Positions 10,093 through 61,648 of a stretch of DNA of 64,000 bases are shown one piece after another. Below the pieces are notes generated by a model. The model saw only the letters and a list, made by a program, of their open reading frames with translations. It was not told the DNA's origin and did not search any database. The stretch lies in contig JALHUR010000084.1 of assembly GCA_022867325.1 (NCBI GenBank), positions 6,084 through 70,083 on the forward strand, written 5' to 3'. Each line of letters opens with the position of its first letter. Position 1 is the stretch's first letter. This DNA is from Candidatus Aminicenantes bacterium. GTDB taxonomy: Bacteria; Acidobacteriota; Aminicenantia; Aminicenantales; JAFGBC01. The position numbers were made by a program, and so were the translations under genes.

Positions 10093-12844
10093 TGTCTTTT
10101 CCTCTCCCGGGGCTCGGACGTTCGCCGAGACGTTGACCTTTTATACCCGAATCGAGAATCTCTGTCAAACCCTCGACTCCCCGGCCTGAAGGCCGGGGCT
10201 TGGTCAGGGTTGACCCTGAGCCGCCCTTTTCGTCCCCGCCTTGAAAGGAGGGGCTTAGCGTCGGCGAACGGGTCAATTTGGCCGTTTCCCCGCGCGGCGC
10301 GGCGGGGAGCACGGGCAGGAACCGGACTTCCTCACGGGCCATATCGTAGACCTGGTCCTCGAGGTTCAGGAGCTCGAAGACGACATCCTGGGGCCTGGGC
10401 GCTTTGCCGGGGCCTTGCGGGATGATCAGGACGAGGATCCGGGGAGGGCCCGACATTCGAATTTGGAGTCCGGACTCTCCTCCCTTGTCCTCGAGAAAGC
10501 GCCGGATCAGGGCGGAGAGCCTGTCGGCAAAGGAACCGTCCGGGATTTCTTTCCGGGCGCAGGCCGTCCGGACCGCTTCTTCCGCTTCGGGTCGATCAAG
10601 ATTCAGCGAATAGACCATGGAATGGACCGCCCGGGATAAAGGCGGCTCCGAATCGGCTAAAAGCCTAAGCTCAAGAAAACGGACGCCCTCCGGGGCCGAT
10701 GCGTTGAGGCGAACGATCGTCTCTTGGGCGGAGAGGGCGGTCCTGGATTTGAGCTCCAGGCAATCCTTTTTGGCCTCCATCCCCAGGGGAAGCGCGGGGA
10801 GAAACGAGACGATCATTTTGGGATGGAACCCTTCGGACATGGCGACCGAAAGGCCGGCCCTCCGGAATATTCTCTGGAGGACGTTGATGAGATCGAGATG
10901 GGACATGAAACGCGCCCGTCCTCCCTTTGAGTAAAAAAGACGGTAGCGAAGAGGCTGGGCGGAATCGCGGCCGAGACGAGGGAAAGGCTCTTCTCGATCG
11001 CCGGCCTCCCCTTCCTCGGAGGACCTGTCCAGGAAAGCGGGCAAGTCGCAGCCCCGGCAGTCGGCGCAAGTCCTTTCCAGACAGGACGGGGTCCTCTCCT
11101 CCGCCATGGCCCTGTCGAGCTCGCCTTGCAGGAATTCTTTCCTGACGCCGGTGTCGATATGGTCCCAGGGCAATAAGGCGTCGCGGTCCAGGGCGCCGAG
11201 ATAATCTCCTTTCTCGATGCCCGACGACATGAAGGCCTGCTCCCAACAGCGGGCCTGGAAACGGTCCTTCCAGCCGTCAAAACGGGCTCCATTCTCCCAG
11301 GCCGCCCTGAGAAGACGGGAGACCGCCCGATCTCCTCGCGAGAGTACCGCTTCCAGCACGGATTTCTCAACCGGATGGTCCTTGAAATCGATGAAACGGA
11401 ACCTTTTCAAACGATCCTTGAGGAAAGCCTGTTTTTCAAGGAGAGTCTCCGGTCCGTCCATGGCCTGCCATTGGAAGGGCGTATGCGGTTTAGGTATGAA
11501 TGAGGAGACGCTGAGGTTGAAGCGCGGCGGCGAATGGAGGATCGATCGGCCTTCCTCGACGAGGGCCTTGACGAGATCGACGATTGCAACCAGGTCTTCG
11601 TCCCGCTCCGTCGGCAGCCCGATCATGAAATAGAGCTTGAGAAGCCTCCAGCCATGGCGGAAAGCGCTCCGGGCCGCTTCGAAGATGTCGGCATCGTCGA
11701 GGTGCTTGTTAATGACCCGGCGCAACCTCTCGGTCCCGGCCTCGGGGACCAGGGTCAGGCCGGTCTTACGGACCGTGAGGATGCTCCGGACGATTTCGGT
11801 CGAGACGCCCTTGGGCCTCAATGACGACAGGGAGAGTGAAATCTTATCGGGCTCGAGCTCGGCCATGGCTTTCTTGATCAAACCGTCGAGGCCGGGATAG
11901 TCGCTCAGGGAAAGGGCGGTCAGGGACGCGTCTTCGTAGCCTGTCGCCCGCAGGCTTTTTTTCATCGTATTGAGGATGAACGCCCGGCTTTTGACCCGGA
12001 AGGGATGGTAGAGGGTTGTGGCCTGGCAGAACCTGCATTTATGGGGGCAGCCGCGGGCCGCCTCGACCGCGACGCGGTCGAATACGGCTTTAATGTTGGG
12101 GACGACGATGTCCTCCGGGAAATAAGACTCCCGGAACGACCGAACGATTCTTTTCTTTATGCGGGAAGGTTCCCCCGGCCCGGCCTTAACGGCCAGGAGT
12201 CTTGAGCGGTCCGGCCGATAGGTCTCGTAGAGGGACGGGACATAAACGCCGGGAATCCCGGCCAAATCCTTGAGAATCCGGCCCCTGTCTTGGGCGGCCC
12301 CTTTGAGCTCGATCAGCCGTTCGACGATTTCCGGGAATGCCTCCTCGCCGTCGCCGATCAGGAAGAGGTCGAAGAAATCCGCGACGGGCTCGGGATTGAA
12401 GGCGGACGGGCCGCCGGCGATGACGAGAGGATGGTTTCCGGTCCGGTTCGCCGCGAGAAGGGGGATCCGGCCCAAATCGAGCATGGTCAGGATGTTCGTC
12501 GCGTTGAGCTCGTAGAGGAGCGAAAAGCCCACGATGTCGAACCGGCCGAGCGGAGTGGCCGTCTCCAGCGAGAAGAGCGGAAGATCCCGCGCCCGGAGCT
12601 CGGCCTCGCAATCCGGCCAGGGCGCGAAGACGCGTTCGGCCTGGATATGGGGACGGTTGTTGAGGATGGCGTAGAGGATCTTCTGCCCCAGATACGACAT
12701 GCCGATTTCATAAACGTCGGGAAAGGCGAGCGCGACCCTGGCCCTGACGGCGGCCGGATCCTTGCGGCGGGCGTTCCATTCCCCTCCCGTGTAGCGGGCC
12801 GGCTTCTCGACCCGGCGCAGGACCCGGTCCAGGCCGTCAGACAT
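10085..12844 (-). CDS. B12-binding radical SAM protein (TIGR03960 family) fused to DUF2344 (TIGR03936)
   Basis: 919 aa with radical SAM Cys cluster AARGCPHKCRFCQ, followed by a DUF2344-like C-terminal half. The last about 65 codons read through repeat copy A1. 8-nt overlaps with rodA upstream and ACAD downstream. Confidence 0.8.
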   Translation of the reverse strand: MSDGLDRVLRRVEKPARYTGGEWNARRKDPAAVRARVALAFPDVYEIGMSYLGQKILYAILNNRPHIQAERVFAPWPDCEAELRARDLPLFSLETATPLGRFDIVGFSLLYELNATNILTMLDLGRIPLLAANRTGNHPLVIAGGPSAFNPEPVADFFDLFLIGDGEEAFPEIVERLIELKGAAQDRGRILKDLAGIPGVYVPSLYETYRPDRSRLLAVKAGPGEPSRIKKRIVRSFRESYFPEDIVVPNIKAVFDRVAVEAARGCPHKCRFCQATTLYHPFRVKSRAFILNTMKKSLRATGYEDASLTALSLSDYPGLDGLIKKAMAELEPDKISLSLSSLRPKGVSTEIVRSILTVRKTGLTLVPEAGTERLRRVINKHLDDADIFEAARSAFRHGWRLLKLYFMIGLPTERDEDLVAIVDLVKALVEEGRSILHSPPRFNLSVSSFIPKPHTPFQWQAMDGPETLLEKQAFLKDRLKRFRFIDFKDHPVEKSVLEAVLSRGDRAVSRLLRAAWENGARFDGWKDRFQARCWEQAFMSSGIEKGDYLGALDRDALLPWDHIDTGVRKEFLQGELDRAMAEERTPSCLERTCADCRGCDLPAFLDRSSEEGEAGDREEPFPRLGRDSAQPLRYRLFYSKGGRARFMSHLDLINVLQRIFRRAGLSVAMSEGFHPKMIVSFLPALPLGMEAKKDCLELKSRTALSAQETIVRLNASAPEGVRFLELRLLADSEPPLSRAVHSMVYSLNLDRPEAEEAVRTACARKEIPDGSFADRLSALIRRFLEDKGGESGLQIRMSGPPRILVLIIPQGPGKAPRPQDVVFELLNLEDQVYDMAREEVRFLPVLPAAPRGETAKLTRSPTLSPSFQGGDEKGGSGSTLTKPRPSGRGVEGLTEILDSGIKGQRLGERPSPGRGKDND
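10133..10168 (-). promoter_or_regulatory. putative internal promoter TTGACA-17-TATAAA for the acyl-CoA dehydrogenase gene; the -35 lies at the edge of repeat A1
   Basis: Minus strand: ggtTTGACAgagattctcgattcgggTATAAAagg, about 40 nt upstream of ACAD ATG at 10092. Confidence 0.35.
10181..10290 (-). repeat. palindromic mosaic repeat, family A copy 1 (minus orientation)
   Basis: Minus strand reads ttgacccgttcgccgacgcta...ggcggggacgaaaag...gctcagggtcaaccctga...ccccggccttcaggccgggg...gggtttgaca. Homologous to copies at 28880-29109 and 45287-45350. Confidence 0.7.
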
Positions 12845-13928
12845 TGGCGAAGCGCCTCATCTTGACGTTGAGGATCAATCCCACGGCCAGGAAGGTGGCC
12901 GTCAGGGACGAGCCTCCGTAGCTCAGGAGCGGAAGGGGAATTCCCGCGATGGGCAGGACGCCGATGATCATCAGGATGTTGATGAAGAATTGAAAGGCGA
13001 TGAAGGAGGAGGCCAGGAACGAGATATAAACGCCGGCCCTGTCCCGGGACTGTCCGACCGACTTGAACAGCCGGCCCAGGAACAAGTAATAGAGGATCAG
13101 GGCGGCCAGACTCCCGGCGAACCCGAATTCTTCGCCGATGACCGAAAAGATGAAATCGGTATGGCGGGCCGGCAGGAAGCGAAGCTGACTCTGGCTTCCT
13201 TTCTTGAAGCCTTTTCCTAAGAGCCCGCCGGACCCGATGGCGATCTTGGATTGGCGGATTTGATAGCCCGCCCCCTGCGTATCCTGACCCGGGGAGAGGA
13301 ACGTCATGATCCGCTTCTTCTGGTAGTCTTTGAGAGTCAAGTTCCAGGTCACCAGGCTCAGGAGAACTATGATGATGAGGAGGACGACGAGCGTCTTCTT
13401 GGTCCGGCCGGCCAGGATCAGGGCGGCCGCCAGGATCGGGATATAGCAAACGGCCGTGGCCAGGTCGGGCTGGAGGGCCACCAGGACGAACGGAACGAAG
13501 ACGGCGCCGGCGCCGGTTAAGGCGATTGTCCGCGTCACGAATGTTTTTTTGGCGGCCCCGAACAGCTGGGCCAGGACCAAGATCAGGACGACCTTAAGGA
13601 TCTCGGACGGCTGGATTTGGAAGAACGGCATCCGGATCCAGGACTTGGTCCCGGCCGTGGTCCGGGCGAACGGGATCATGGCGGCCAAGACGGCCACGAT
13701 CAAAACATAGACGGGCAGGGCGAAGGTCATCAGCGTTTTATAGTCGACGGCCAGGATGAAAAAGAGCATAACCAGGCTGAAGGCCGCGAAGGTGAATTGC
13801 TTCAGGAAATAGGCGCCGCCGGCTTGGTGAGAAGAGCTGTAGATGGCGGCGATGCCCAAGGCCGTATTCAGGAGCAGAAGAACGATCAACCTCCAGTCGA
13901 TTTCCTGGAAATGCTGTCTGTCAATCAT
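12837..13928 (-). CDS. rodA: rod shape-determining protein RodA (SEDS family)
   Basis: 363 aa, multi-TM, FtsW/RodA family. Confidence 0.9.
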   Translation of the reverse strand: MIDRQHFQEIDWRLIVLLLLNTALGIAAIYSSSHQAGGAYFLKQFTFAAFSLVMLFFILAVDYKTLMTFALPVYVLIVAVLAAMIPFARTTAGTKSWIRMPFFQIQPSEILKVVLILVLAQLFGAAKKTFVTRTIALTGAGAVFVPFVLVALQPDLATAVCYIPILAAALILAGRTKKTLVVLLIIIVLLSLVTWNLTLKDYQKKRIMTFLSPGQDTQGAGYQIRQSKIAIGSGGLLGKGFKKGSQSQLRFLPARHTDFIFSVIGEEFGFAGSLAALILYYLFLGRLFKSVGQSRDRAGVYISFLASSFIAFQFFINILMIIGVLPIAGIPLPLLSYGGSSLTATFLAVGLILNVKMRRFANV

Positions 13929-15732
13929 TCCTGGACCTACAGAGCTCGAACAGGGGTTTGGCCAGCGGGGCGGCGACCGCTCCGCCCATTCCGCCGTACT
14001 CGACGAGCACGGTCACGACGTAGCGGGACTTCTGGCGCGGGGCGAAGCCCGTGAACCAGGAATGGGTCTTGATCGTCCTCTTGAGCTTCTCCGCCTTCTC
14101 GGTGCTGATGATCTGAGTCGATCCCGTCTTGCCGCAGACGTCGAAGCCGTCGACCCGGGCCGCCCGCCCCGTCCCCTCCTCGTTCACCGAACGGTACATA
14201 CCCTCGATAACTTTCTCAAAACTGGAGGGCCGGATATCGACCCGGCCGGCCTGCTTGAAGGGATCGGCCGATGTTTTGGCCGTTTCGTCGACGGGCGCCA
14301 AAAAAAGACGGGGGACGACGGGCTCCCCGCGATTGGCGATGAGCGCCGTGTAAGCGGCGACCTGGAGTGGAGTCACAATCAGGGGGCCCTGTCCGATGGC
14401 CACCGAGATCGTCTCGCCCGCGAACCAGCCCGCCTTGTGGGTCCTTTTTTTCCAGTCCGGATGGGGTACCAATCCCTCTTTCTCACCCGGGAGATCGATT
14501 CCCGTCTTCCGTCCCAGGCCCATTTTTTCGGCCGTCTTGGCGATGTCCTCGATCCCCATTCGGCGGCCTATGTTGTAGAAATAGATGTTGCACGAGTAGC
14601 TGAGCGCATTGGGCAAGTTCAGGGAGCCGTGGCCCGCCTCGAACCAGCAGGCGAACGGATGACCGTAGATCTCGATCTTGCCGCCGCAATAATAAGTCGT
14701 GTCCTCGCCGATCAGGCCGGATTCGAGGGCGCCGATGGCCATGACCGGCTTGAAGACCGAGCCCGGGCTGTAAAGGCCCCGGATGGCCCGGTTCTCGAGC
14801 GGGTAGTTGGGGCTTCGGATCAAGGACAGCCATTCATCGACCGTGAATCGGTTGATGAACTTATTGGGATCGAAGGTCGGAAAACTCGCCAAAGCCAGGA
14901 CCTCGCCGTATTCAGCGTCGAGGACGACGATGGCCCCTTCCTTGCCCAGGAGAAGCTCCTCGGCCCTTTTCTGAAGGCTGATGTCGATCGAAAGCGTCAG
15001 GTTCTCCCCCTGTTTGGGCTCCTCCCTGGCCTCCTCTCCCTTGGGCTTTCCCACGCTGTCGACGATCTCCAGGATGCGGCCCTTCTTCCCGACCAGACGC
15101 GCTTCGTACTGCCGTTCAATCCCGTTCCTGCCGACAAGGTCTCCGGCCTGATGATCGCGAAAGCGGTTGGACCTCAGCTCTTCCAGCGTCAATTCCTGTA
15201 GATAGCCGAGGACATGGGCTGCAGCGCTTCCCTGAGGATAGATGCGCTTGGGTTCGGCCGTGACCAGGAGTTCGGGAAACTCGTACAGGCGCGCCTAGAT
15301 TCGCGAGACCTCCTCCCTGGTCAGGTTGTCCTTGACCGGGACCGGCTTATAGCCCGGCAACGAACCGAAGCGCCCGATGCGCGCCCGGATCGTCTCGACC
15401 GGAAGCCCGAGCAGGTCTCCGATCCGCCGGACGGAGGCATCGAGGTCGCCGCTATTGTCGCGGACGATCGAAGCCGTGAATGAGGCGGCGTTGTCGGCGA
15501 GCTTGACGCCGTTCCTATCCAGGATCAGTCCGCGCGGGGCGGCCAGAACGACCTCGCGGGTTCGATTGGACTCGGACAGGGCCCAGTACTTGGCATGATC
15601 CAAGATCTGAATTTTCCAGTAAAGAACGAGCACGGCCCCGAACAGGATCTTGACGATCGCAAATACGGCCTTCGACCGCCGGCAGACGAGCGTCAGGTCC
15701 TCGTAGATGCGTTCCGTATCCTGGGGGCTCAC
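13921..15732 (-). CDS. mrdA: penicillin-binding protein 2 (transpeptidase), interrupted by a single in-frame TAG at 15295-15297
   Basis: ORFs 15295..15732 (PBP dimerisation N-terminus) and 13921..15192 (transpeptidase domain) are in the same frame, 604 codons in total. The 34 codons between them translate coherently (ARLYEFPELLVTAEPKRIYPQGSAAAHVLGYLQE). The only disruption is one TAG. Confidence 0.8.
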
Positions 15733-52906: not shown

Positions 52907-53696
52907 GTTGGCGTCGTTTGAAAATCAGGCCCGCCAGGATCCCGGCCCCGAGACCCAACAGGCAAAAAAGCTGAGGATAGGACACGCTCAAGTAGGGCGA
53001 GGGGCCCTGGATGAGGTAAGCCCGGCCCGGATGGTCGCCCCGGAAGAATTCGGTGATATAGCGGATGACCGAATAATTGACGATATATAAAGAAAAAACC
53101 TGGCCGTCGAACTTTTTCCGTCTCAGGATCAGGAACAGGATGCCGAAGTTGAGGAAATTGAGGGCTGCTTCATACAGCTGAACGGGATGAAGGCGCTCCC
53201 CGAGCGGAATTCCGGTCAGGTTGTGGGCATAATCGTCCTTGAACACGACCCCCCAGGGCGCGTCGCAGACCCTGCCGTAACAACATCCGGCGGCAAAGCA
53301 GCCGATCCGTCCGACGGCGTGGCCCAGGGCGAGGGCGGGGACAATGATGTCGGCCGCCTTCCAGGTCGGGATCTTCTTCCGCCGGAAGTACCAGAGCGCG
53401 AAGACGACGCCGAAGGCCAACCCCCCCTGAAAGACGCCGCCCGACCGGGCCAGGCTGAAAAGCTCGCCCGGGTAGCTCGTGTAATAATCGAAGTTGGAAA
53501 TGAAGAGAATGAGCTTGGCGCCGACGAGCGAAATCAGGATCGTGTAAAAAGCGGCGTCGATCAGCTTGACGGTGTCGAGCCCCCGCTTCTTGGCCTGAAC
53601 GTAGAAAAACCAGAGCCCGAGGCCGACGCCCAGGGCCATCATCAGTCCGTAGCTGTGGAGCGTCAACGGGCCGAGCTTGAAGACGATGGGGATCAT
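52899..53696 (-). CDS. lgt: prolipoprotein diacylglyceryl transferase
   Basis: 265 aa polytopic, Lgt signature (G..R.G...G). Confidence 0.9.
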   Translation of the reverse strand: MIPIVFKLGPLTLHSYGLMMALGVGLGLWFFYVQAKKRGLDTVKLIDAAFYTILISLVGAKLILFISNFDYYTSYPGELFSLARSGGVFQGGLAFGVVFALWYFRRKKIPTWKAADIIVPALALGHAVGRIGCFAAGCCYGRVCDAPWGVVFKDDYAHNLTGIPLGERLHPVQLYEAALNFLNFGILFLILRRKKFDGQVFSLYIVNYSVIRYITEFFRGDHPGRAYLIQGPSPYLSVSYPQLFCLLGLGAGILAGLIFKRRQRV

Positions 53697-54169
53697 GCCG
53701 GTTTTCTCCTGAAAAGAACGATAAGGAGGAGGCAGGCGCCGATCGAAATGCAGGAATCGGCGAGGTTGAAGATCGGCCAGTGCCAGCGCTTGATGTAGAC
53801 GTCCATGAAGTCGATGACCGAGCCGCGCAGGATCCGGTCGACGTTGTTGCCGACGGCCCCGGCCAGGATCAAGGACAACGCGGCCAGCATCAGGACGTCC
53901 CGGCCCGGAGTCTTTATGAAATAGAAGACGACCAGCCCCAGGGCCAGGAAAGACGCCAGGGCCAGAATCCAGCGAAAGGCCGGGTTTCCGGCGTGGGACA
54001 GAAAGCCGAAGATGGCCCCGTCGTTGCGATTATAGGTAAGGTTGATAAACCCCCGGATGATGGGCCGGCTTTCATAGAGGGTCATGCTCTTGGCGATCAG
54101 GGACTTGGTCCATTGGTCCAGGACGACCGTAAGGCCGATCAATCCCAGGGCGAGTCCTTTCCGTTTCAC
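53693..54169 (-). CDS. lspA: lipoprotein signal peptidase II
   Basis: GTG start at 54169 overlapping the ileS TGA (GTGA). LspA motifs NRNDGAIFGF, FNLADSCISIG. Track ORF extends further upstream but would overlap ileS. Confidence 0.75.
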   Translation of the reverse strand: MKRKGLALGLIGLTVVLDQWTKSLIAKSMTLYESRPIIRGFINLTYNRNDGAIFGFLSHAGNPAFRWILALASFLALGLVVFYFIKTPGRDVLMLAALSLILAGAVGNNVDRILRGSVIDFMDVYIKRWHWPIFNLADSCISIGACLLLIVLFRRKPA

Positions 54170-56943
54170 GTCCGATTCCCTTCCAGGACTCCGGAGCAGC
54201 GACTGCAGCAGTTGGGAAAAGCCTTGGACAAGCCGACCGTCGTTGCGTAGTTCCAGCAGCGCTCGCATTTCTCCCCCGGGGCCCGGCCGACCCGGACCTC
54301 CAGCTCCGGGCCTCCCCCCTCCCCGAGCGTCACGGCCGAAACGATGAACAGGGCCGGGAGGGCGGCCTCGTGCTTTCGGAGAAGCCCGAGCTGGGCTTGG
54401 GGCGCGGCCAGGCTCAGCGACGCCTCGAGCGAATTCCCGATGAGTTTGTCCACACGGGCCTTCTCGAGCTCCTTGAGGACCTTCTCCCGGACGGCCATCA
54501 GAGCTTCCTGTTCGTTGAAGGGGTCCGGTTCGAGCCATCTTTCCTCGAAAGCGGGAAACAATCCCAAGTGGACGGACTCCGTTTTGCCGGAGAAAGCCGG
54601 CATGGCCTCCCAGGCCTCTTCGGTCGTGAAGGGGAGGATGGGCGCCATGAGGGCCAGCGTATCCTTAAGGATCCGGAACAGGGCCGTCTGGGCCGAACGC
54701 CTAAGGCGCGACTTTTTGGCCGAGCAGTAGAGCCGGTCCTTGATGATGTCGAGATAGACGGCGCACATCTCGACCGTGAAGAACTGGTAAAGGGAGTGGA
54801 AAACGACGTGGTACTCATAGTCTTGGTACCCCTGCAGGATGCGTCGGCCGGTCCGGGCCGTCGTCTCCAGCGCCCAGCCGTCGAAGATCTCCATCTCGGC
54901 GGCCGGGACGGCATCGGCGGCCGGGTCGAAATCGTAGAGGTTGCCGAGCAAGTAGCGCCAGGTGTTGCGGATCTTGCGGTAGGCCTCGACCAGGCGCTGG
55001 AGGATCTCGGTCCCGAACCGGGCGTCCTCCTTGAAGTTCAGCATGGCGACCCACAGCCGCAGGATCTCCGCCCCGTTCTGGGCGATGATCCGGCCGGGAT
55101 CGATGACATTCCCCATCGATTTCGACATCGCCCTCCCCTGCTCGTCCAGGACAAAGCCGTGGGTGATGCAAGTCCGGTAGGGCGATCCGCCTTTGGCTCC
55201 GACTCCGATCACGATCGAGCTGTTGAACCAGCCCCGGTACTGGTCGTGACCCTCGACGTAGACGTCGGCGGGCCAGGGCAGGTCGGGCCGTTTGCCCAGT
55301 TCGCCTTGGCTGGCCCCGGATTCGAACCAGACGTCGATGATGTCGTTGGCTTTTTCGAACTCCGCGGCGCCGCAGGAGGCGCAGGACGTTCCCCGGGGGA
55401 TGAGATCCCCGGCCGGCTTGATGTACCAGGCGTTCGAACCCTCCCTTGAAAAGACATCGGCGACGTGGCGGGCGATGCTGTCGCCGGCCACGACGGCCCC
55501 GCATCGGACTCAGTGAAAGGCCGGGATGGGTACGCCCCACAGGCGCTGGCGCGAGATGCACCAGTCGGGGCGGCCGCTCATCATATTGGCGATCCGCTCC
55601 TCGCCCCAGGCCGGAATCCAGCGGACCTTGCCGACCGCTGCCTGGGTTCGATCCCTCAGGCCGGCCGCGTCCATCGAGATGAACCATTGCTCGGTGGCCC
55701 GGAAGATGACGGGGTTCTTGCAGCGCCAGCAGTGGGGGTAGGAGTGGCTGATGGCTGTTTCCTTGAGGAGGCTCCCGTCCTTCTTCATGTCTTCGCTGAT
55801 GGGCTTATTGGCCTTGAAAACGTTGAGGCCGGCGTACTTGGCGACGTCGGGCGTGAAGTTCCCGGCGCCGTCGACGGGCGTGTAGATGTCGAGGCCGTAA
55901 GCCATGCCGGTCAGATAGTCGTCGTGGCCGTGTCCGGGCGCGGTGTGTACGGCGCCCGTCCCGTCCTCGAGAGTCACGTAATCGCCCAGGACGAAGACCG
56001 ATTCCCTGTCGATGAAGGGATGGCGGGCCTTGAAGCCCTCGAGTTCGCCGCCCAGGAAAGTCGCCAGGAGCTTAGTTTCCTTGAATCCGAGCTCTTCGGC
56101 CACCACCGGGACGAGGCGCTTGGCCAGGAGATAAACTTCGGCGCCGACCTCGACGGCCGCGTACTCGTGCTCGGGATGGAAGGCGATGGCCAGGTTGGCC
56201 GGCAGGGTCCAGGGCGTCGTCGTCCAGATCAGGACGTAGACCGTCTTTCCTTTGAGGGCCGGCGCTTTGGCGGACAGGTCGGAGACGACCGGAAACCGGA
56301 CGTAGATCGAAGGCGACGTCTTGTCCCTATACTCGATCTCGGCCTCGGCCAGGGCCGTTTGACAGTGGAAGCACCAATGGACCGGCCGCTTCCCTTTATA
56401 GACATTGCCCGAGGCAAAGAAAGCGGCCAGGTAGCGAATCGTCTCGGCCTCGTACTCGGGATTCATGGTCAGGTAGGGCGTTTCCCATTCGCCCAGGACG
56501 CCCAGCCGGATGAATTCGGAGCGCTGGATGTCGATGTATTGAAGGGCGTACCGCCGGCACTCTTCGCGGATCTGGGTGATCGACATGGATTTCTTTGCGT
56601 CGCCCAACTGCTTGTCGACCTGGATCTCGATCGGCAGGCCGTGGCAGTCCCAGCCGGGCAGGTAGGCGGCCTGGAATCCCTGCATGCTCTTGGTCTTGAC
56701 GATAAAATCCTTTAGGATCTTGTTGAGGGCCGTCCCGAGGTGGATGTGGCCGTTGGCGTAGGGAGGCCCGTCATGGAGGACGAAGCAGGGGCGGCCTTTC
56801 CGGGATTCCAGGATTTTCTTGTAGAGACCGATGGCGTCCCAGGCCTTGATGATTTCGGGTTCGTTCTGGGCCAGCTTGGCCTTCATCGAGAAAGACGTCT
56901 GGGGCAGGTTCAGGCTGAGCTTGAGATCCTTGTCGTCCGACAT
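54166..56943 (-). CDS. ileS: isoleucine--tRNA ligase, interrupted by a single in-frame TGA at 55510-55512
   Basis: ORFs 55510..56943 (HIGH-region half: PYANGHIHLG) and 54166..55491 (KMSKS half: KMSKSMGNV, C-terminal Zn-finger CERCW...CSRC) are in the same frame, 926 codons in total, with a coherent link ...WGVPIPAFH*VRCGAVVAGDSIARHVADVF. The stop sits where many IleS sequences have Cys (FYCExCG). Confidence 0.85.
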
Positions 56944-57014
56944 GTGCGACTCCCATAGATACGGCCGGAAATTAACTCATTATAAATCAATTTATTCTAT
57001 CCGACCAGCCCTAA

Positions 57015-57512
57015 ATGTCAATTCCGCGCGCGGTCAAAGCGCTCGTCAAGGATTACGACCTGGTTTTAAGCGCGGTCCCGGGCGCGCTGGGATTCCAAAC
57101 GCTGCGCGCCGTAATCGAAGCCCGCCGAACCGTCGTCGACATCGCCTTTTTCCCCGAAGATCCATTCGCCCTGTCGGAGGCGGCCGATAAAGCCGGCATC
57201 CAGGCCGTCGTCGACTGCGGGGTCGCCCCGGGCCTGAGCAATGTCCTGGTCGGACACGTCCAAACCCGGCTCGACGAAACGCGATCGGCGGCCATCTACG
57301 TCGGAGGCTTGCCCGAGGTCAGGGAGCGCCCCTTCGAGTATAAGGCCGTTTTCTCGCCCTCCGACGTCATCGAAGAGTACTTAAGGCCGGCCCGGCTTAT
57401 TCAAAACGGACGCCTCGTCGTCCGGCCCGCGCTATCCGAACCGGAGCTCATGGATTTTCCGGGCGTCGGGACGCTCGAGGCCTTCAACACCGATGAAGAA
57501 GTCGGGACTTGA
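57015..57512 (+). pseudogene. saccharopine-dehydrogenase-like gene fragment (central portion only)
   Basis: 165-aa ORF resembles only the middle of about 400-aa saccharopine dehydrogenase-like NAD(P) enzymes (DLVLSAVPGALGFQTLRAVIEARRTVVDIAFFPEDP...). No Rossmann GxGxxG N-terminus and no C-terminal domain. Squeezed between the ileS promoter region and a convergent radical SAM gene. Confidence 0.4.
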
Positions 57513-57533
57513 GGGAATGAGCCGTCTCCGGCT

Positions 57534-58490
57534 TCACTCCGGAATCCGGCGCAGGTCGTAGCTGTACCCGGAAGCAAGCCGATCCGCCGCCTCGAGGTGT
57601 TTCCTGAGGTATTGGCCGCAGTTGCTGCCGATCAGGTTTTCCTCGGGCTCGCCGATGCTGACCAGAACCTGATAGCCGGCCGACTTGAGCGCTTCGACGA
57701 TCCCATACCGCTCATCCTCCCGGAACGGGTCGATATAAGACGACAGCCCGTGCCGCTCGGCCTGGTAGGTCGGGTTGAGGGGCGTGATTTTCAGAAGGAA
57801 CCGGTCCGGATGGAAATGGGCCAAGAGGACGTCGGGATCGACGGGCATCCCGTGGGCCAAGGCGAAGTTCAAGGCGATCTTCCGGTCTCCGGGTTCGAAG
57901 AATTCGTCCCCGTAGGCGGCCATCCGGCCGAAATCCCATTTGGGGATCGGCATGAACCGGTCCCTCAGCACGGAGTCGGTCGTATGGATTGAAAATTGGA
58001 ATTGAAAGCGTCCGCCCCGATACCTGTCTTTCTTGATCCTCAGCAACCTTCGGAAAAATGAGCCGGAGCCCAGCGGGGCGATCGTCGATAGCGAGGGCAT
58101 GAAACCGGGAGCCCGATAGCGGTCGGGAAACGTCTCGAGGACGTCCAGGACGGCCGGGTTGAGGGCGGGCTCGCCCATCCGGGCGAACTGGATCTTGAAC
58201 TGGGCTTGGGGAATCCGGCCGTCCGGATACCGGCCGCGGACCATGTAATCGACCTGGGCGAAGATGTCCTCGACTCCGGCGTTCCCCCGGAACAGGCCGC
58301 CCGCGTCGCACATCCGGCAGCCGACGGGACAGCCGAACATCGTCGACACCAGCAATACCCATTTGGATCCCTGACGGATCCCGGGCTGATAGGCATCCAC
58401 GAATTCCGCGTATCGGCCTTCCCCGAAATCGGCCAGGTAGACGACGGCCACGCCTTCTTTCCCGGCCGAGCCGATCACTTTCATGGCCAT
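57534..58490 (-). CDS. radical SAM enzyme, function unknown
   Basis: 318 aa. Single CxxxCxxC cluster (FGCPVGCRMCDAGG). GGE-like SAM motif ARMGEPALNP. Confidence 0.6.
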   Translation of the reverse strand: MAMKVIGSAGKEGVAVVYLADFGEGRYAEFVDAYQPGIRQGSKWVLLVSTMFGCPVGCRMCDAGGLFRGNAGVEDIFAQVDYMVRGRYPDGRIPQAQFKIQFARMGEPALNPAVLDVLETFPDRYRAPGFMPSLSTIAPLGSGSFFRRLLRIKKDRYRGGRFQFQFSIHTTDSVLRDRFMPIPKWDFGRMAAYGDEFFEPGDRKIALNFALAHGMPVDPDVLLAHFHPDRFLLKITPLNPTYQAERHGLSSYIDPFREDERYGIVEALKSAGYQVLVSIGEPEENLIGSNCGQYLRKHLEAADRLASGYSYDLRRIPE

Positions 58491-59380
58491 GCGAGTTGAC
58501 CCGTTTTCGATTCGGCGGCTATCTTCATGGCCGCCCGGACTCCGTCCCCAACGGCGATCGAGGCCTGGCGGAAAAGACCGTTTTTCACGTCGCCCACGAA
58601 ATGAAGCCGGCCGCGGAGCTTCCCCAGGCGCGATGCTCTGTCCAAGCGTTCGGTTAGAAAATCCCGACTTGGCTCACGGCCGACGGCCGTCACCAAATAA
58701 TCGACCTTGAGCAGGAACGTACCCGACGGTCCCCGTCCCTCCAGGCAAATCGCCCGAGGTCCGGCCGGCCAGACCCTTTCGATCCTTGTCTTGGGAACAT
58801 ATCGAATGCGGGGCCGCGCCAGGACTCGGTCCAGGAGGAGCGGCAGGCAGCGCGGAGAATTCCCACGATCGAAAACGATCACCCGGTTGGCCCCGGCCAG
58901 GTTGAGCGCGTAATCCATCGCCGCGTCGCCCGCTCCGATGACGGCGATATCGCGGCCGGAGACATTCCCGATCGGGACGATTTCGCCGACGACCCGGCGG
59001 CGGGCCTCGGGGGCGATCTCGAGTCCGGCCGGAGGCTTGGCTTTGGTTCCGGTCGCCACGACGACGATCCCGGATTGGAGCAGCCTTCGCCTGGTTTTAA
59101 GGACGAAGCGTCCTCGAACGACGTCCAGGCGCAAGACTTCGTCGAAGATGACGCGGAGCCCGATCCGCTCGGCCTGCTTTTCCAGCCGCCGAACGAGGCT
59201 CGGACCGCCGATCCCGCCCGGGAATCCCGGGTAATTCTCGACGCGAAAGGCATTGCGCAACAGTCCGCCCAGCGCCTCCTTCTCCACGAGAAGCGGGTTC
59301 AGTCCCGACCGCTGGAGCTGGACGGCCGCCGCGATCCCGGCCGGGCCGCCGCCGACGACGGTGACGAACTCATTCCCCAT
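58481..59380 (-). CDS. thioredoxin-reductase-like FAD/NAD(P)-dependent oxidoreductase (no CxxC redox motif)
   Basis: VVGGGPAGIAAA FAD motif, second dinucleotide motif VIGAGDAAMDYA. C-terminal GD motif HFVGDV. Confidence 0.7.
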   Translation of the reverse strand: MGNEFVTVVGGGPAGIAAAVQLQRSGLNPLLVEKEALGGLLRNAFRVENYPGFPGGIGGPSLVRRLEKQAERIGLRVIFDEVLRLDVVRGRFVLKTRRRLLQSGIVVVATGTKAKPPAGLEIAPEARRRVVGEIVPIGNVSGRDIAVIGAGDAAMDYALNLAGANRVIVFDRGNSPRCLPLLLDRVLARPRIRYVPKTRIERVWPAGPRAICLEGRGPSGTFLLKVDYLVTAVGREPSRDFLTERLDRASRLGKLRGRLHFVGDVKNGLFRQASIAVGDGVRAAMKIAAESKTGQLAWP

Positions 59381-60041
59381 CGGACCTCACCGCCTTCAAA
59401 ACTTCTCGCACCAGGACGGGCAGGGCGAAGCCGTAGGACAGGTTCAGGAGGCTGGCCCGATGATAAGCCTCCCGGTAAGTCGCGGTCCCATCAACGGCGA
59501 AGAAGACCTCGAAGCCGCGGACGAATGCCGATCTGGCCGTCGTTTCGCAACAGAGATGGGTCATGACCCCGCAAATGACGAGTTGGGTCACGGAGCGTTC
59601 CTTGAGGAACGCTTCCAGGGACGTCTCATGGAAGGCGTCATATTGGTTTTTGTCCAGGATCGTTCCCCGGCCGACATCGAGACGGCGGGTGATCGAACTC
59701 AAGGGATTGTCCTCCGTCAACAGCTCCCGCCACCAGATCCCCATTCGGCCCGCATCCCCGGCGGCGTTGAGATGTCGGGTGAAGCAGACGGGCCGGCCGG
59801 ACCGTCCGAAACCGGCGATCATCGCCCGAATGCCCGGGACGATCGCGGGCGCGCTGGGGATGAACGCATGCGAGGCGGGCTCGAGGAAATAGTCCTGCAT
59901 GTCGAGGACGAGCAAGGCCGCCCGCCCCCGCTTCAGCCCCAAGGCGCGCCGTTTCCGGAACGAGGCCAGCCGCCGCATCATCTCTCCCGATTTCAGGCGG
60001 ATGGTGGATGTCTTGAAATAGGCCTGTCTGGAATTGTCCAT
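59370..60041 (-). CDS. isochorismatase-family cysteine hydrolase (possibly nicotinamidase-like)
   Basis: ALLVLDMQDYF... and LVICGVMTHLCC (catalytic Cys context). Sits between the flavoprotein and nadB. Confidence 0.7.
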   Translation of the reverse strand: MDNSRQAYFKTSTIRLKSGEMMRRLASFRKRRALGLKRGRAALLVLDMQDYFLEPASHAFIPSAPAIVPGIRAMIAGFGRSGRPVCFTRHLNAAGDAGRMGIWWRELLTEDNPLSSITRRLDVGRGTILDKNQYDAFHETSLEAFLKERSVTQLVICGVMTHLCCETTARSAFVRGFEVFFAVDGTATYREAYHRASLLNLSYGFALPVLVREVLKAVRSDGE

Positions 60042-60073
60042 GTTCGTTCTCGAGGCCGGTCTTGGTCCCCCCC

Positions 60074-61648
60074 TCAATCCTTCCGGAAGTGCGCGCCGCG
60101 CGAGACGGGATTGCTGAGGGCGGCCCGCGTGATCATCAGGGCGACCAGGATCCCGTTGCGGAGCCCTACGATTTCGGCGTCCATCTGGGCTTCACGGTAG
60201 AACTTTTCGATCCGATGGAGGAGGTATTCGAGGTCGGCCTTCGCCCTTTCCAGGCGCTTCCGGGTCCGGATGATCCCGGCGTAGTTCCATAGCGTGGAGC
60301 GGATGGTCAGCCAGTCCTGCTGGATGAGGGCCGGGTCGATCTCCTCTTCTTTGCGCGGATAATACCAGAGATGGATCTCGGACGGCTTGACCGGAATCGC
60401 CGGCTCGAACCGCTCGGCGATGCGACGTCCGGCCCTAGTTCCCCAGACAAGTCCCTCCAGAAGCGAGGTCGAGGCGAGACGATTCGCGCCGTGGACGCCC
60501 GTGCAGGAAACTTCGCCGACGGCATAGAGGCCGGGGAGGGTCGTCTGTCCCCAGTCGTCGACCAGGACGCCGCCGCAGCAGTAATGGGCGGCCGGGACGA
60601 CCGGGATGGGCTCTTTGCTGATGTCGATCCCGTAAAGGCGACAGGTCTTATAGATGTTGGGAAAACGCTTCTTGACGTCGGATTTGGCGTAGGAGGCGAG
60701 GTCGAGAAGGACGTAGGGCGTGTTCGTCGCGATCATCTCCTCATAGATGGCCCGGGTGACCTCGTCGCGCGGCGCCAGATCGCGCCGGGGGCTATATTTC
60801 TCCATGAATGTCCGGCCGTCTCTGGTCTTGAGACGCCCCCCTTCGCCCCGGACGGTCTCCGAGATCAAAAAGCCCTCGGAATCCCTGTGGTAGAGGGAAG
60901 TCGGATGGAACTGGATGTATTCCATGTTCACGATCCGGGCCCCGGCCCGCAGGGCCATCGCATAGCCGTCCCCGATCGATTCGCGCGGGTTCGAGGTATA
61001 GAGAAAGACGGCCCCGCAGCCGCCCGTGGCCAGGACGGTCGTCGAAGCGAAAACGGACCGGACTTTCCCGGTCTTGTTGTCCAAGATGTAGGCGCCGATG
61101 CAGGCCGGCGATCGGTAGTAGGCGATCGGGTTCTTGGAGTGGTGGGGAACGGTCAGAAGGTCGACGGCCGTGTGGTCGGCCAGCAGGGTCACGGACTTGC
61201 GTTTCTTGAGGGCGGCGACGAACCGCTCCTCGATCGTCCGCCCCGTCGTATCCTGGACGTGGAGGATCCGGCGCCGCGAGTGACCCGCCTCCTGGGCGTA
61301 GTCGAGCTCGTCCGGCGCGTTCCGGGTGAAGGGGATGGCGAGCTCTTCGATCAGGATCCGCTCGACGAGCTCCTTCCCCTCCCCGGCCAGGACCTCGACC
61401 GCCTTCGGATCGCTCGTCCCGTCGCCCTTCTCGATGATATCGGCGACGAGCAGGACCGGCGCGTCGTTCCTACCCAGCGAGACGATCCCGCCCTGGGCGT
61501 AGAACGTATTGGACTCCTCGATCCGGGAGGATTTGTTGACGACCAGGACCTTCAGCCCGGACTTGGAGGCTTGGAGGGCCGCGCTGGCGCCGGCGATCCC
61601 GGAGCCGATGACCAGGACATCGGTATGGAGAATGTCGCCGCGGGTCAT
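60074..61648 (-). CDS. nadB: L-aspartate oxidase
   Basis: DVLVIGSGIAGASAAL FAD motif and NadB/succinate-dehydrogenase-flavoprotein family throughout. Start chosen at ATG 61648 with AAGAGG RBS (ATG 61666 also possible). Confidence 0.9.
   Translation of the reverse strand: MTRGDILHTDVLVIGSGIAGASAALQASKSGLKVLVVNKSSRIEESNTFYAQGGIVSLGRNDAPVLLVADIIEKGDGTSDPKAVEVLAGEGKELVERILIEELAIPFTRNAPDELDYAQEAGHSRRRILHVQDTTGRTIEERFVAALKKRKSVTLLADHTAVDLLTVPHHSKNPIAYYRSPACIGAYILDNKTGKVRSVFASTTVLATGGCGAVFLYTSNPRESIGDGYAMALRAGARIVNMEYIQFHPTSLYHRDSEGFLISETVRGEGGRLKTRDGRTFMEKYSPRRDLAPRDEVTRAIYEEMIATNTPYVLLDLASYAKSDVKKRFPNIYKTCRLYGIDISKEPIPVVPAAHYCCGGVLVDDWGQTTLPGLYAVGEVSCTGVHGANRLASTSLLEGLVWGTRAGRRIAERFEPAIPVKPSEIHLWYYPRKEEEIDPALIQQDWLTIRSTLWNYAGIIRTRKRLERAKADLEYLLHRIEKFYREAQMDAEIVGLRNGILVALMITRAALSNPVSRGAHFRKD

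What the first reader, a model, noticed from the sequence alone, without database searches (positions are those of the whole stretch)
55510..55512. In-frame TGA in ileS at a position aligned with a conserved Cys
ORFs 55510..56943 and 54166..55491 are co-frame and give a 926-codon IleS. The link reads ...WGVPIPAFH-TGA-VRCGAVV..., and many IleS sequences have FYCExCG at this position. TGA where Cys is expected is the classic signature of selenocysteine insertion. It also fits TGA to Cys/Trp/Gly recoding, a TGC/TGT to TGA point error, or a pseudogene. IleS is essential and is co-transcribed here with lspA (GTGA overlap), so a dead gene is unlikely unless a paralog exists. No obvious bacterial SECIS hairpin was recognised by eye in the 40 nt 3' of the TGA.
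Basis: partly seen in the sequence, partly recalled or inferred. Interest (0 to 1): 0.7.

Follow-up and report, generated by a model that had tools for sequence, protein, structure and literature searches.

The report
One-off stop codon in ileS
The in-frame TGA in this isoleucyl-tRNA synthetase gene is a single-base oddity of this one sequence (a same-species contig reads TGC, cysteine), so it is most likely a sequence error or sporadic nonsense mutation, not selenocysteine.

Summary
ileS (window 56943..54166, minus strand, 926 codons) has one in-frame TGA at 55512..55510. It replaces the first Cys of a conserved CxxC-x39-CxxC motif (codons 478, 481, 521, 524).

The selenocysteine reading is not supported:
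- A conspecific metagenome contig (L044, 98.4% nt identity, gapless) has TGC there, with identical flanking residues and the same downstream hairpins.
- The next relative (L002) and all 80 species-representative genomes fetched also have TGC or TGT.
- A degenerate DNA pattern requiring TGA at this site found nothing in the 185,579-species genome collection or in 241 million metagenome records.
- TGA is the commonest ordinary stop in the window.
- No Rfam SECIS family matched. A hairpin that formally fits the loose bacterial SECIS model occurs at 18% of control codons.

The window carries other lesions compared with conspecific contigs. PBP2 has an in-frame TAG where the conspecific has GAG. 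The saccharopine dehydrogenase gene next to ileS has two deletions. ileS itself shows strong purifying selection and keeps its promoter-like site.

Verdict: a singleton C-to-A change, either an assembly or consensus artefact or a very recent nonsense allele. Low interest.

The parts
54166..56943 (-). ileS (type-1 isoleucyl-tRNA synthetase), 926 codons with one internal TGA
   Evidence: Translation. Hits are IleRS of Aminicenantes/Acidobacteriota carrying PF00133/PF09334/PF08264. Gapless 925-codon alignment to L002 with dN/dS 0.14.
55510..55512 (-). In-frame TGA at codon 478, where relatives have TGC/TGT (Cys)
   Evidence: Conspecific L044 has TGC, L002 has TGC, and 81/81 relatives have Cys. 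No TGA at this site in the genome or metagenome scans.
55372..55503 (-). Remaining three Cys codons of the CxxC-x39-CxxC motif: codon 481 = 55503..55501, codon 521 = 55383..55381, codon 524 = 55374..55372. Inferred structural zinc knuckle.
   Evidence: Conservation in 182-186 of 186 sequences. All four positions are non-Cys in the solved Bacillales-type IleRS 8c9e and 1ffy, an all-or-none pattern. Zinc binding itself is inferred, not tested.
55461..55495 (-). Most stable hairpin 3' of the TGA: 35 nt, loop CAGCA, about -22.5 kcal/mol. It has no G in the first two loop positions.
   Evidence: The 76-nt fold has z = -0.5 against shuffles. The sequence is identical in the Cys-encoding conspecific L044.
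55480..55494 (-). Alternative hairpin that formally fits the bacterial SECIS model: 5-bp stem, loop GGCCG, 20 nt after the UGA, -14.7 kcal/mol. It is mutually exclusive with the stronger hairpin.
   Evidence: using the model constraints quoted in PMC13188914. The same criteria are met at 18% of 3,438 control codons in the window's genes. The hairpin is also present in L044.
55489..55491 (-). First in-frame GTG after the TGA. It starts the 441-aa downstream ORF and is the only conceivable restart for a two-piece enzyme (speculative).
   Evidence: ORF list and sequence. No adaptation relative to L044.
56994..57021 (-). Promoter-like site upstream of ileS (TTGACA-16-TAGAAT, 11/12 match), retained in the window
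   Evidence: The upstream deletion relative to L044 ends 1 nt before the -35 hexamer.
53693..54169 (-). lspA (signal peptidase II). Its start overlaps the ileS stop as GTGA.
   Evidence: Pfam Peptidase_A8, E = 2.6e-40. Sequence.

Best explanation
The TGA is not a coding signal. It is a singleton C-to-A change at the third base of the Cys478 codon (TGC), specific to this assembled sequence. Read literally, translation ends after His477. That leaves a 477-residue fragment lacking the second half of the Rossmann fold with the KMSKS loop (here AMSKS), the anticodon-binding domain and the C-terminal zinc finger, which would be inactive. A cell cannot live on that alone. So the base most likely does not represent the working gene of a viable population. 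It is either a consensus or assembly error, or a rare or very recent deleterious allele that the assembly captured. The functional gene reads TGC, coding for Cys, the first ligand of an inferred structural zinc knuckle. What is shown: the single-base difference from a conspecific contig, invariance of Cys in relatives, absence of any other TGA at this site, ordinary use of TGA as a stop, and other lesions in the same window. What is inferred: that the codon terminates translation, and that the origin is an artefact or an unfixed variant.
For: (1) Conspecific contig L044 (98.4% nt, gapless over 2,472 nt) has TGC with the same flanks, PAFHCVRCGAVVAGDSIAR. (2) L002 (87% nt) has TGC, and 81/81 relatives have TGC/TGT. 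(3) The pattern W-G-V-P-I-x-x-F-x-TGA-x-x-C-G gave 0 hits in genome contigs and 0 in metagenome contigs. (4) 29 of 50 greedy ORFs in the window end in TGA. (5) ileS is otherwise intact: dN/dS against L002 is 0.10 before and 0.18 after the stop, with no indels. There is no excess of derived non-synonymous changes on the window branch (7:12 against 3:7, Fisher p = 1). The promoter-like site is kept. So the change is very recent or is not real. (6) The same window has an in-frame TAG in PBP2/mrdA at 15295-15297 where conspecific L203 (97.2% nt, gapless) has GAG. It also has two deletions (489 and 404 nt) in the saccharopine dehydrogenase gene that is intact in L044. (7) None of about 76 full-length species-representative ileS genes shows an internal stop.
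Against: No reads were available, so error and real allele cannot be separated. Alignments to conspecific contigs are gapless over about 10 kb, so the assembly is not obviously error-prone, and substitution errors are rare in such assemblies. Two nonsense codons in housekeeping genes within 64 kb is odd under any simple model. A hairpin formally fitting the bacterial SECIS model exists.
Confidence: 0.6

Rival explanations
1. A real, fixed pseudogene. This ileS copy was inactivated very recently, and the cell relies on a second IleRS (for example a type-2 paralogue) elsewhere in the genome.
For: The neighbouring saccharopine dehydrogenase gene is a true remnant with two deletions relative to L044, so real gene decay occurs at this locus. 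Gapless agreement with conspecific contigs argues against a sloppy assembly.
Against: There is no sign of relaxed constraint in ileS: dN/dS 0.10-0.18, no indels, branch test p = 1. The promoter-like site is retained. ileS is translationally coupled to lspA. No second ileS lies in the window. PBP2 also has a stop, and that would need its own backup.
Confidence: 0.2
2. A real nonsense allele that is tolerated. Either low-level near-cognate readthrough of UGA (by Trp or Cys tRNA) supplies some full-length enzyme, or the two halves (residues 1-477, plus a fragment restarted at GTG 55491) assemble non-covalently. From memory, split E. coli IleRS fragments can do this (Shiba and Schimmel 1992).
For: An in-frame GTG lies 6 codons after the TGA. 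Both halves remain under purifying selection against L002.
Against: Nothing around the site is adapted for this: the sequence matches the Cys-encoding conspecific except for one synonymous change. There is no good Shine-Dalgarno sequence before the GTG. A restart would delete the second Cys of the CxxC. No other genome shows this arrangement.
Confidence: 0.08
3. Selenocysteine insertion. UGA478 is decoded as Sec by SelB and tRNA-Sec, using the downstream hairpin as a SECIS, so that Sec becomes a zinc ligand.
For: The TGA aligns exactly with an invariant Cys. A hairpin 20 nt downstream (loop GGCCG, -14.7 kcal/mol) formally meets the published bacterial SECIS constraints.
Against: The conspecific contig has TGC with the same hairpins, so the hairpins were not selected for Sec. 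There were 0 TGA in 81 relatives and 0 in two collection-wide scans. The SECIS criteria are met at 18% of control codons, and a stronger competing hairpin lacks the loop G. No Rfam SECIS family matched, even at E <= 10. The window has no tRNA-Sec and no SelA, SelB or SelD domain. No aminoacyl-tRNA synthetase turned up as a selenoprotein in term searches of two 2026 papers: searching the selenoproteome review for 'tRNA synthetase' gave only seryl-tRNA synthetase and 'isoleucyl' gave nothing; searching the BSepDB database paper for 'tRNA ligase' gave nothing and 'synthetase' gave one occurrence, not an aminoacyl-tRNA synthetase. The site is an inferred structural metal ligand, not a redox centre. 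The second in-frame stop in the window is TAG replacing Glu, which Sec cannot explain.
Confidence: 0.02
4. Genome-wide reassignment of TGA to Trp, Gly or Cys.
For: None beyond the in-frame TGA itself.
Against: TGA terminates 29 of 50 ORFs in the window, including ileS itself, lgt, lspA and nadB. GC content is 57-64% across the window. No other gene needs TGA readthrough.
Confidence: 0.005

Closest known systems
Sporadic nonsense substitution or consensus error in a metagenome-assembled genome (what annotation pipelines flag as an 'internal stop' pseudogene)
   Same: A single base differs from the conspecific sequence. The rest of the gene is intact and under purifying selection. The change is not conserved anywhere. 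Other isolated lesions occur in the same contig.
   Different: It falls exactly on a Cys codon, which mimics the Sec/Cys signature. Two housekeeping genes are hit within 64 kb.
Bacterial selenoprotein genes (in-frame UGA plus a bacterial SECIS read by SelB; Sec/Cys homologue pairs)
   Same: An in-frame UGA aligned with Cys in homologues. A downstream stem-loop within the 16-37 nt spacing window.
   Different: No orthologue has UGA. The Cys-encoding conspecific has the same hairpins. The hairpin is no better than background. The site is an inferred structural zinc ligand rather than a redox residue. Sec machinery was not found in the window.
Type-1 IleRS with a CxxC...CxxC zinc knuckle in the connective polypeptide region. 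From memory, Thermus thermophilus IleRS has a second zinc site at Cys461/464/502/504 (Nureki et al. 1998).
   Same: Four-Cys spacing and position. The alignment to PDB 1ile (query 8-185 to chain 421-602) puts codon 478 at about chain residue 459-461.
   Different: In this window the first ligand codon is TGA. Bacillales IleRS (8c9e, 1ffy) lack all four Cys, so the module is not universal.

Membership tests
Bacterial selenoprotein gene | In-frame UGA aligned with Cys (or Sec) in homologues | tested here: met
   Codon 478 TGA against Cys in 81/81 relatives.
Bacterial selenoprotein gene | The UGA recurs in orthologues of other organisms or strains | tested here: not met
   Conspecific L044 has TGC.
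Bacterial selenoprotein gene | [quoted passage not shown] | tested here: inconclusive
   One formal hit (d = 20, loop GGCCG, -14.7 kcal/mol). It competes with a stronger hairpin that lacks the G. The criteria are met at 18% of control codons. The sequence is identical in the Cys-encoding L044. No Rfam SECIS match.
Bacterial selenoprotein gene | selA, selB, selC and selD present in the genome | not testable with these tools
   Only 64 kb is available. The window has no tRNA and no SelA, SelB or SelD domain. The source genome is not in the look-up collection.
Bacterial selenoprotein gene | Sec sits at a redox-active or catalytic position | tested here: not met
   The site is the first Cys of a CxxC-x39-CxxC motif that is absent as a whole from active Bacillales IleRS. 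The structural zinc role is inferred.
Alternative genetic code with TGA as a sense codon | TGA is not used as a terminator and occurs in-frame in many genes | tested here: not met
   29/50 ORFs end in TGA. Only ileS has an in-frame TGA.
Long-standing pseudogene | Relaxed selection and further lesions in the same gene | tested here: not met
   dN/dS 0.10 and 0.18, gapless over 925 codons. Branch test p = 1.
Long-standing pseudogene | A functional paralogue compensates | not testable with these tools
   No second ileS in the window. The rest of the genome is unavailable.
Type-1 isoleucyl-tRNA synthetase | Full-length class I architecture: HIGH (here HIHLG) and KMSKS (here AMSKS) motifs, tRNA-synt_1, Anticodon_1 and zf-FPG_IleRS domains | tested here: met
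   Translation. Precomputed Pfam domains of close homologues and of L002. PDB IleRS hits with E down to 3.6e-58.

The most novel reading that the evidence does not exclude
A strain-specific, very recent Cys-to-Sec swap at a structural zinc ligand of IleRS, made possible by a fortuitous SECIS-like hairpin already present in the coding sequence. This would be the first selenocysteine-containing aminoacyl-tRNA synthetase and a snapshot of the birth of a selenoprotein.
Probability: 0.02. Interest if true: 0.8.

Novelty: not a real feature. Interest (0 to 1): 0.07.

Why it matters
If the TGA coded for Sec, it would be a new selenoprotein class in an essential translation enzyme. The evidence says it does not. 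The practical lesson is that 'TGA aligned with Cys' alone is a weak Sec signature. Any TGC/TGT codon is one transversion away from TGA. In GC-rich DNA the loose bacterial SECIS model is met at roughly one codon in five. For users of this assembly, ileS and PBP2 should be treated as carrying unverified internal stops.

Tried and rejected
- Looked for gene fragments ending at the same site in other genomes. P0017 ends at '...PAF' only because its contig ends there.
- Looked up five window proteins by exact sequence to find the source assembly or the same strain. None is on record.
- A short-query protein search meant to catch conspecific IleS fragments failed, because that tool returned only hits up to about 1.75 times the query length. 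This also explains why no full-length IleS appeared.
- An early idea that the ileS promoter had been deleted (from the L002 comparison) was rejected. L044 shows that the deletion stops 1 nt before a retained TTGACA-16-TAGAAT site.
- Tested for relaxed selection on the window branch of ileS. No signal.
- Searched the literature for Sec use in Aminicenantes. Nothing relevant.
- Checked every pair of adjacent long co-frame segments in the window for further interrupted genes. Only ileS and PBP2 are real cases.
- Noted that both nonsense changes are G:C-to-T:A transversions. With n = 2 this is not informative.

Full report
**Observation.** On the minus strand the window reads GCC TTT CAC TGA GTC CGA TGC GGG, i.e. 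A F H * V R C G, with the TGA at 55512..55510. The ORFs 55510..56943 and 54166..55491 are co-frame. Translating 56943..54166 gives a 926-codon IleRS with this single internal stop. The ileS stop overlaps the GTG start of lspA as GTGA (Peptidase_A8). lgt and a pseudouridine synthase follow, in the same order as in the nearest relative.

**Organism and code.** IleS and PBP2 homologues place the window in Aminicenantes (Acidobacteriota). GC content is 57-64% across the window. TGA is the commonest ordinary terminator, ending 29 of 50 greedy ORFs. Genome-wide TGA reassignment is therefore excluded. The window holds no tRNA gene and no Rfam family at gathering score.

**What the codon replaces.** All 80 IleS loci fetched from species-representative genomes, plus L002, have TGC or TGT at this position: 74 and the remaining 7. 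The residue is the first Cys of a CxxC-x39-CxxC motif (codons 478, 481, 521, 524). The second pair is conserved in 182-183 of 186 sequences (the first pair was required by the selection, so only the second pair is informative). The closest solved IleRS structures (8c9e, 1ffy) have Ala, Glu/Gly, His and Ser/Pro at the four positions. So the module is present or absent as a whole. I infer a structural zinc knuckle. From memory it corresponds to the Cys461/464/502/504 site of Thermus thermophilus IleRS, and the coordinates of the 1ile alignment are consistent with that. Zinc binding was not tested.

**Is the TGA found anywhere else?** No.
- The nearest relative by protein search, L002 (a 4.3-Mb contig, 87% nt and 90% aa identity), has TGC.
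- A degenerate pattern encoding W-G-V-P-I-x-x-F-x-TGA-x-x-C-G matches the window. It found nothing in 185,579 species-representative genomes and nothing in 241 million metagenome records.
- One of those control loci, L044 (Ga0315274_10003025), is conspecific with the window. It is 98.4% identical and gapless over window 54551-57022, and 99.1% identical over 57494-61402.
- At codon 478 L044 has TGC, within the same peptide PAFHCVRCGAVVAGDSIAR.

The TGA is therefore a single C-to-A change specific to this sequence.

**SECIS.**
- The 76 nt from the TGA fold to -30.2 kcal/mol, which is ordinary for this composition (z = -0.5).
- The most stable hairpin (55495..55461, loop CAGCA, -22.5 kcal/mol) fails the loop-G rule.
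- A weaker, mutually exclusive hairpin (55494..55480, loop GGCCG, -14.7 kcal/mol) passes.
- The same criteria are met at 18% of 3,438 control codons in the window's own genes.
- The hairpin sequences are identical in the Cys-encoding L044.
- No Rfam SECIS family matched, even at E <= 10.

The hairpin evidence is at chance level.

**State of the gene.**
- Against L002, the 925 sense codons align without gaps. dN/dS is 0.10 upstream and 0.18 downstream of the stop.
- I polarised the window/L044 differences with L002. The window branch has 7 non-synonymous and 12 synonymous changes, and the L044 branch has 3 and 7 (Fisher p = 1).
- A strong promoter-like site (TTGACA-16-TAGAAT, 57021..56994) is retained.

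ileS was therefore a constrained, functional gene until essentially the present. The stop is either very recent or not real.

**Other lesions in the window.**
- PBP2/mrdA lies in the mreB-mreC-mreD-mrdA-rodA cluster and carries an in-frame TAG at 15297..15295. The PBP_dimer domain is split across the two resulting ORFs.
- All close PBP2 homologues are full length, about 600 aa. The conspecific contig L203 (97.2% nt, gapless over 3.6 kb) has GAG at that codon.
- The saccharopine dehydrogenase gene divergent from ileS is a 165-aa remnant. Compared with the intact gene in L044, the window lacks 489 nt (in frame) and 404 nt (the 5' end plus upstream DNA, ending 1 nt before the ileS -35 hexamer).
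- All other ORFs examined look intact by domain coverage.

A TAG that replaces Glu cannot be Sec. The common explanation for these findings is sporadic damage to this particular sequence, whether biological or technical.

**Interpretation.** The most likely reading (about 0.6) is that the A at 55510 does not represent the working gene of a viable population. It would be a consensus or assembly error, or a rare or very recent deleterious allele captured by the assembly, and the functional codon is TGC.

The rivals are:
- A fixed pseudogene backed up by a second IleRS (about 0.2). Real decay next door supports it. The absence of any relaxed constraint weakens it.
- A tolerated nonsense allele, through leaky readthrough or a two-piece enzyme restarted at GTG 55491 (about 0.08). 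There is no supporting adaptation.
- Selenocysteine (about 0.02).
- Code reassignment (essentially excluded).

**What argues against a simple error.** The window agrees with conspecific contigs without a single indel over about 10 kb. Only reads can settle whether the stop is an error or a real allele.

**Novelty and interest.** This is not a recoding feature. It is an ordinary one-off nonsense codon that happens to fall on a Cys codon. Interest is low. The useful by-products are a calibration of how weak the 'TGA-at-Cys plus loose SECIS' signature is in GC-rich DNA, and a warning about internal stops in this assembly.

Noticed in passing
window 15295-15297 (minus strand), within PBP2/mrdA 13921-15732: In-frame TAG in penicillin-binding protein 2 (...LTREEVSRI*ARLYEFPELL...). 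The PBP_dimer domain is split across two ORFs. The conspecific contig L203 has GAG (Glu) at that codon. Like the ileS change, it is a G:C-to-T:A transversion.
   Followed up: yes
window 57015-57512 (+), junctions at 57022/57023 and 57493/57494: The saccharopine dehydrogenase gene is a 165-aa remnant. Compared with the intact gene in conspecific L044, the window lacks 489 nt (in frame, 163 codons) and 404 nt (5' end plus upstream DNA). The junctions are blunt, with at most 1 nt of microhomology.
   Followed up: yes
window 56994-57021 (minus strand): Near-consensus sigma-70-type promoter-like site (TTGACA-16-TAGAAT, 11/12) about 50 nt upstream of the ileS ATG. The upstream deletion ends exactly 1 nt before its -35 hexamer.
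   Followed up: partly
L002 about 12180-12190 (ENA ERZ25039515 contig_23035): The nearest relative's ileS is itself split (759 + 160 aa) by a 1-nt insertion (GCCGTTCTATC against GCCGTCTATC). This looks like an indel error in that 4.3-Mb assembly.
   Followed up: partly
window 57534-58490 (minus strand): A 318-aa ORF with good coding composition but no Pfam match lies between the dehydrogenase remnant and a Pyr_redox gene. It is present in conspecific L044 but absent from this position in L002.
   Followed up: no
window 54166-56943, codons 27, 169 and 727: Three window-specific amino-acid changes in IleS fall at positions that are invariant (L169I, S727C) or K/R-only (K27N) in 14 other Aminicenantes sequences. 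The number is not significantly above that of the conspecific branch.
   Followed up: partly
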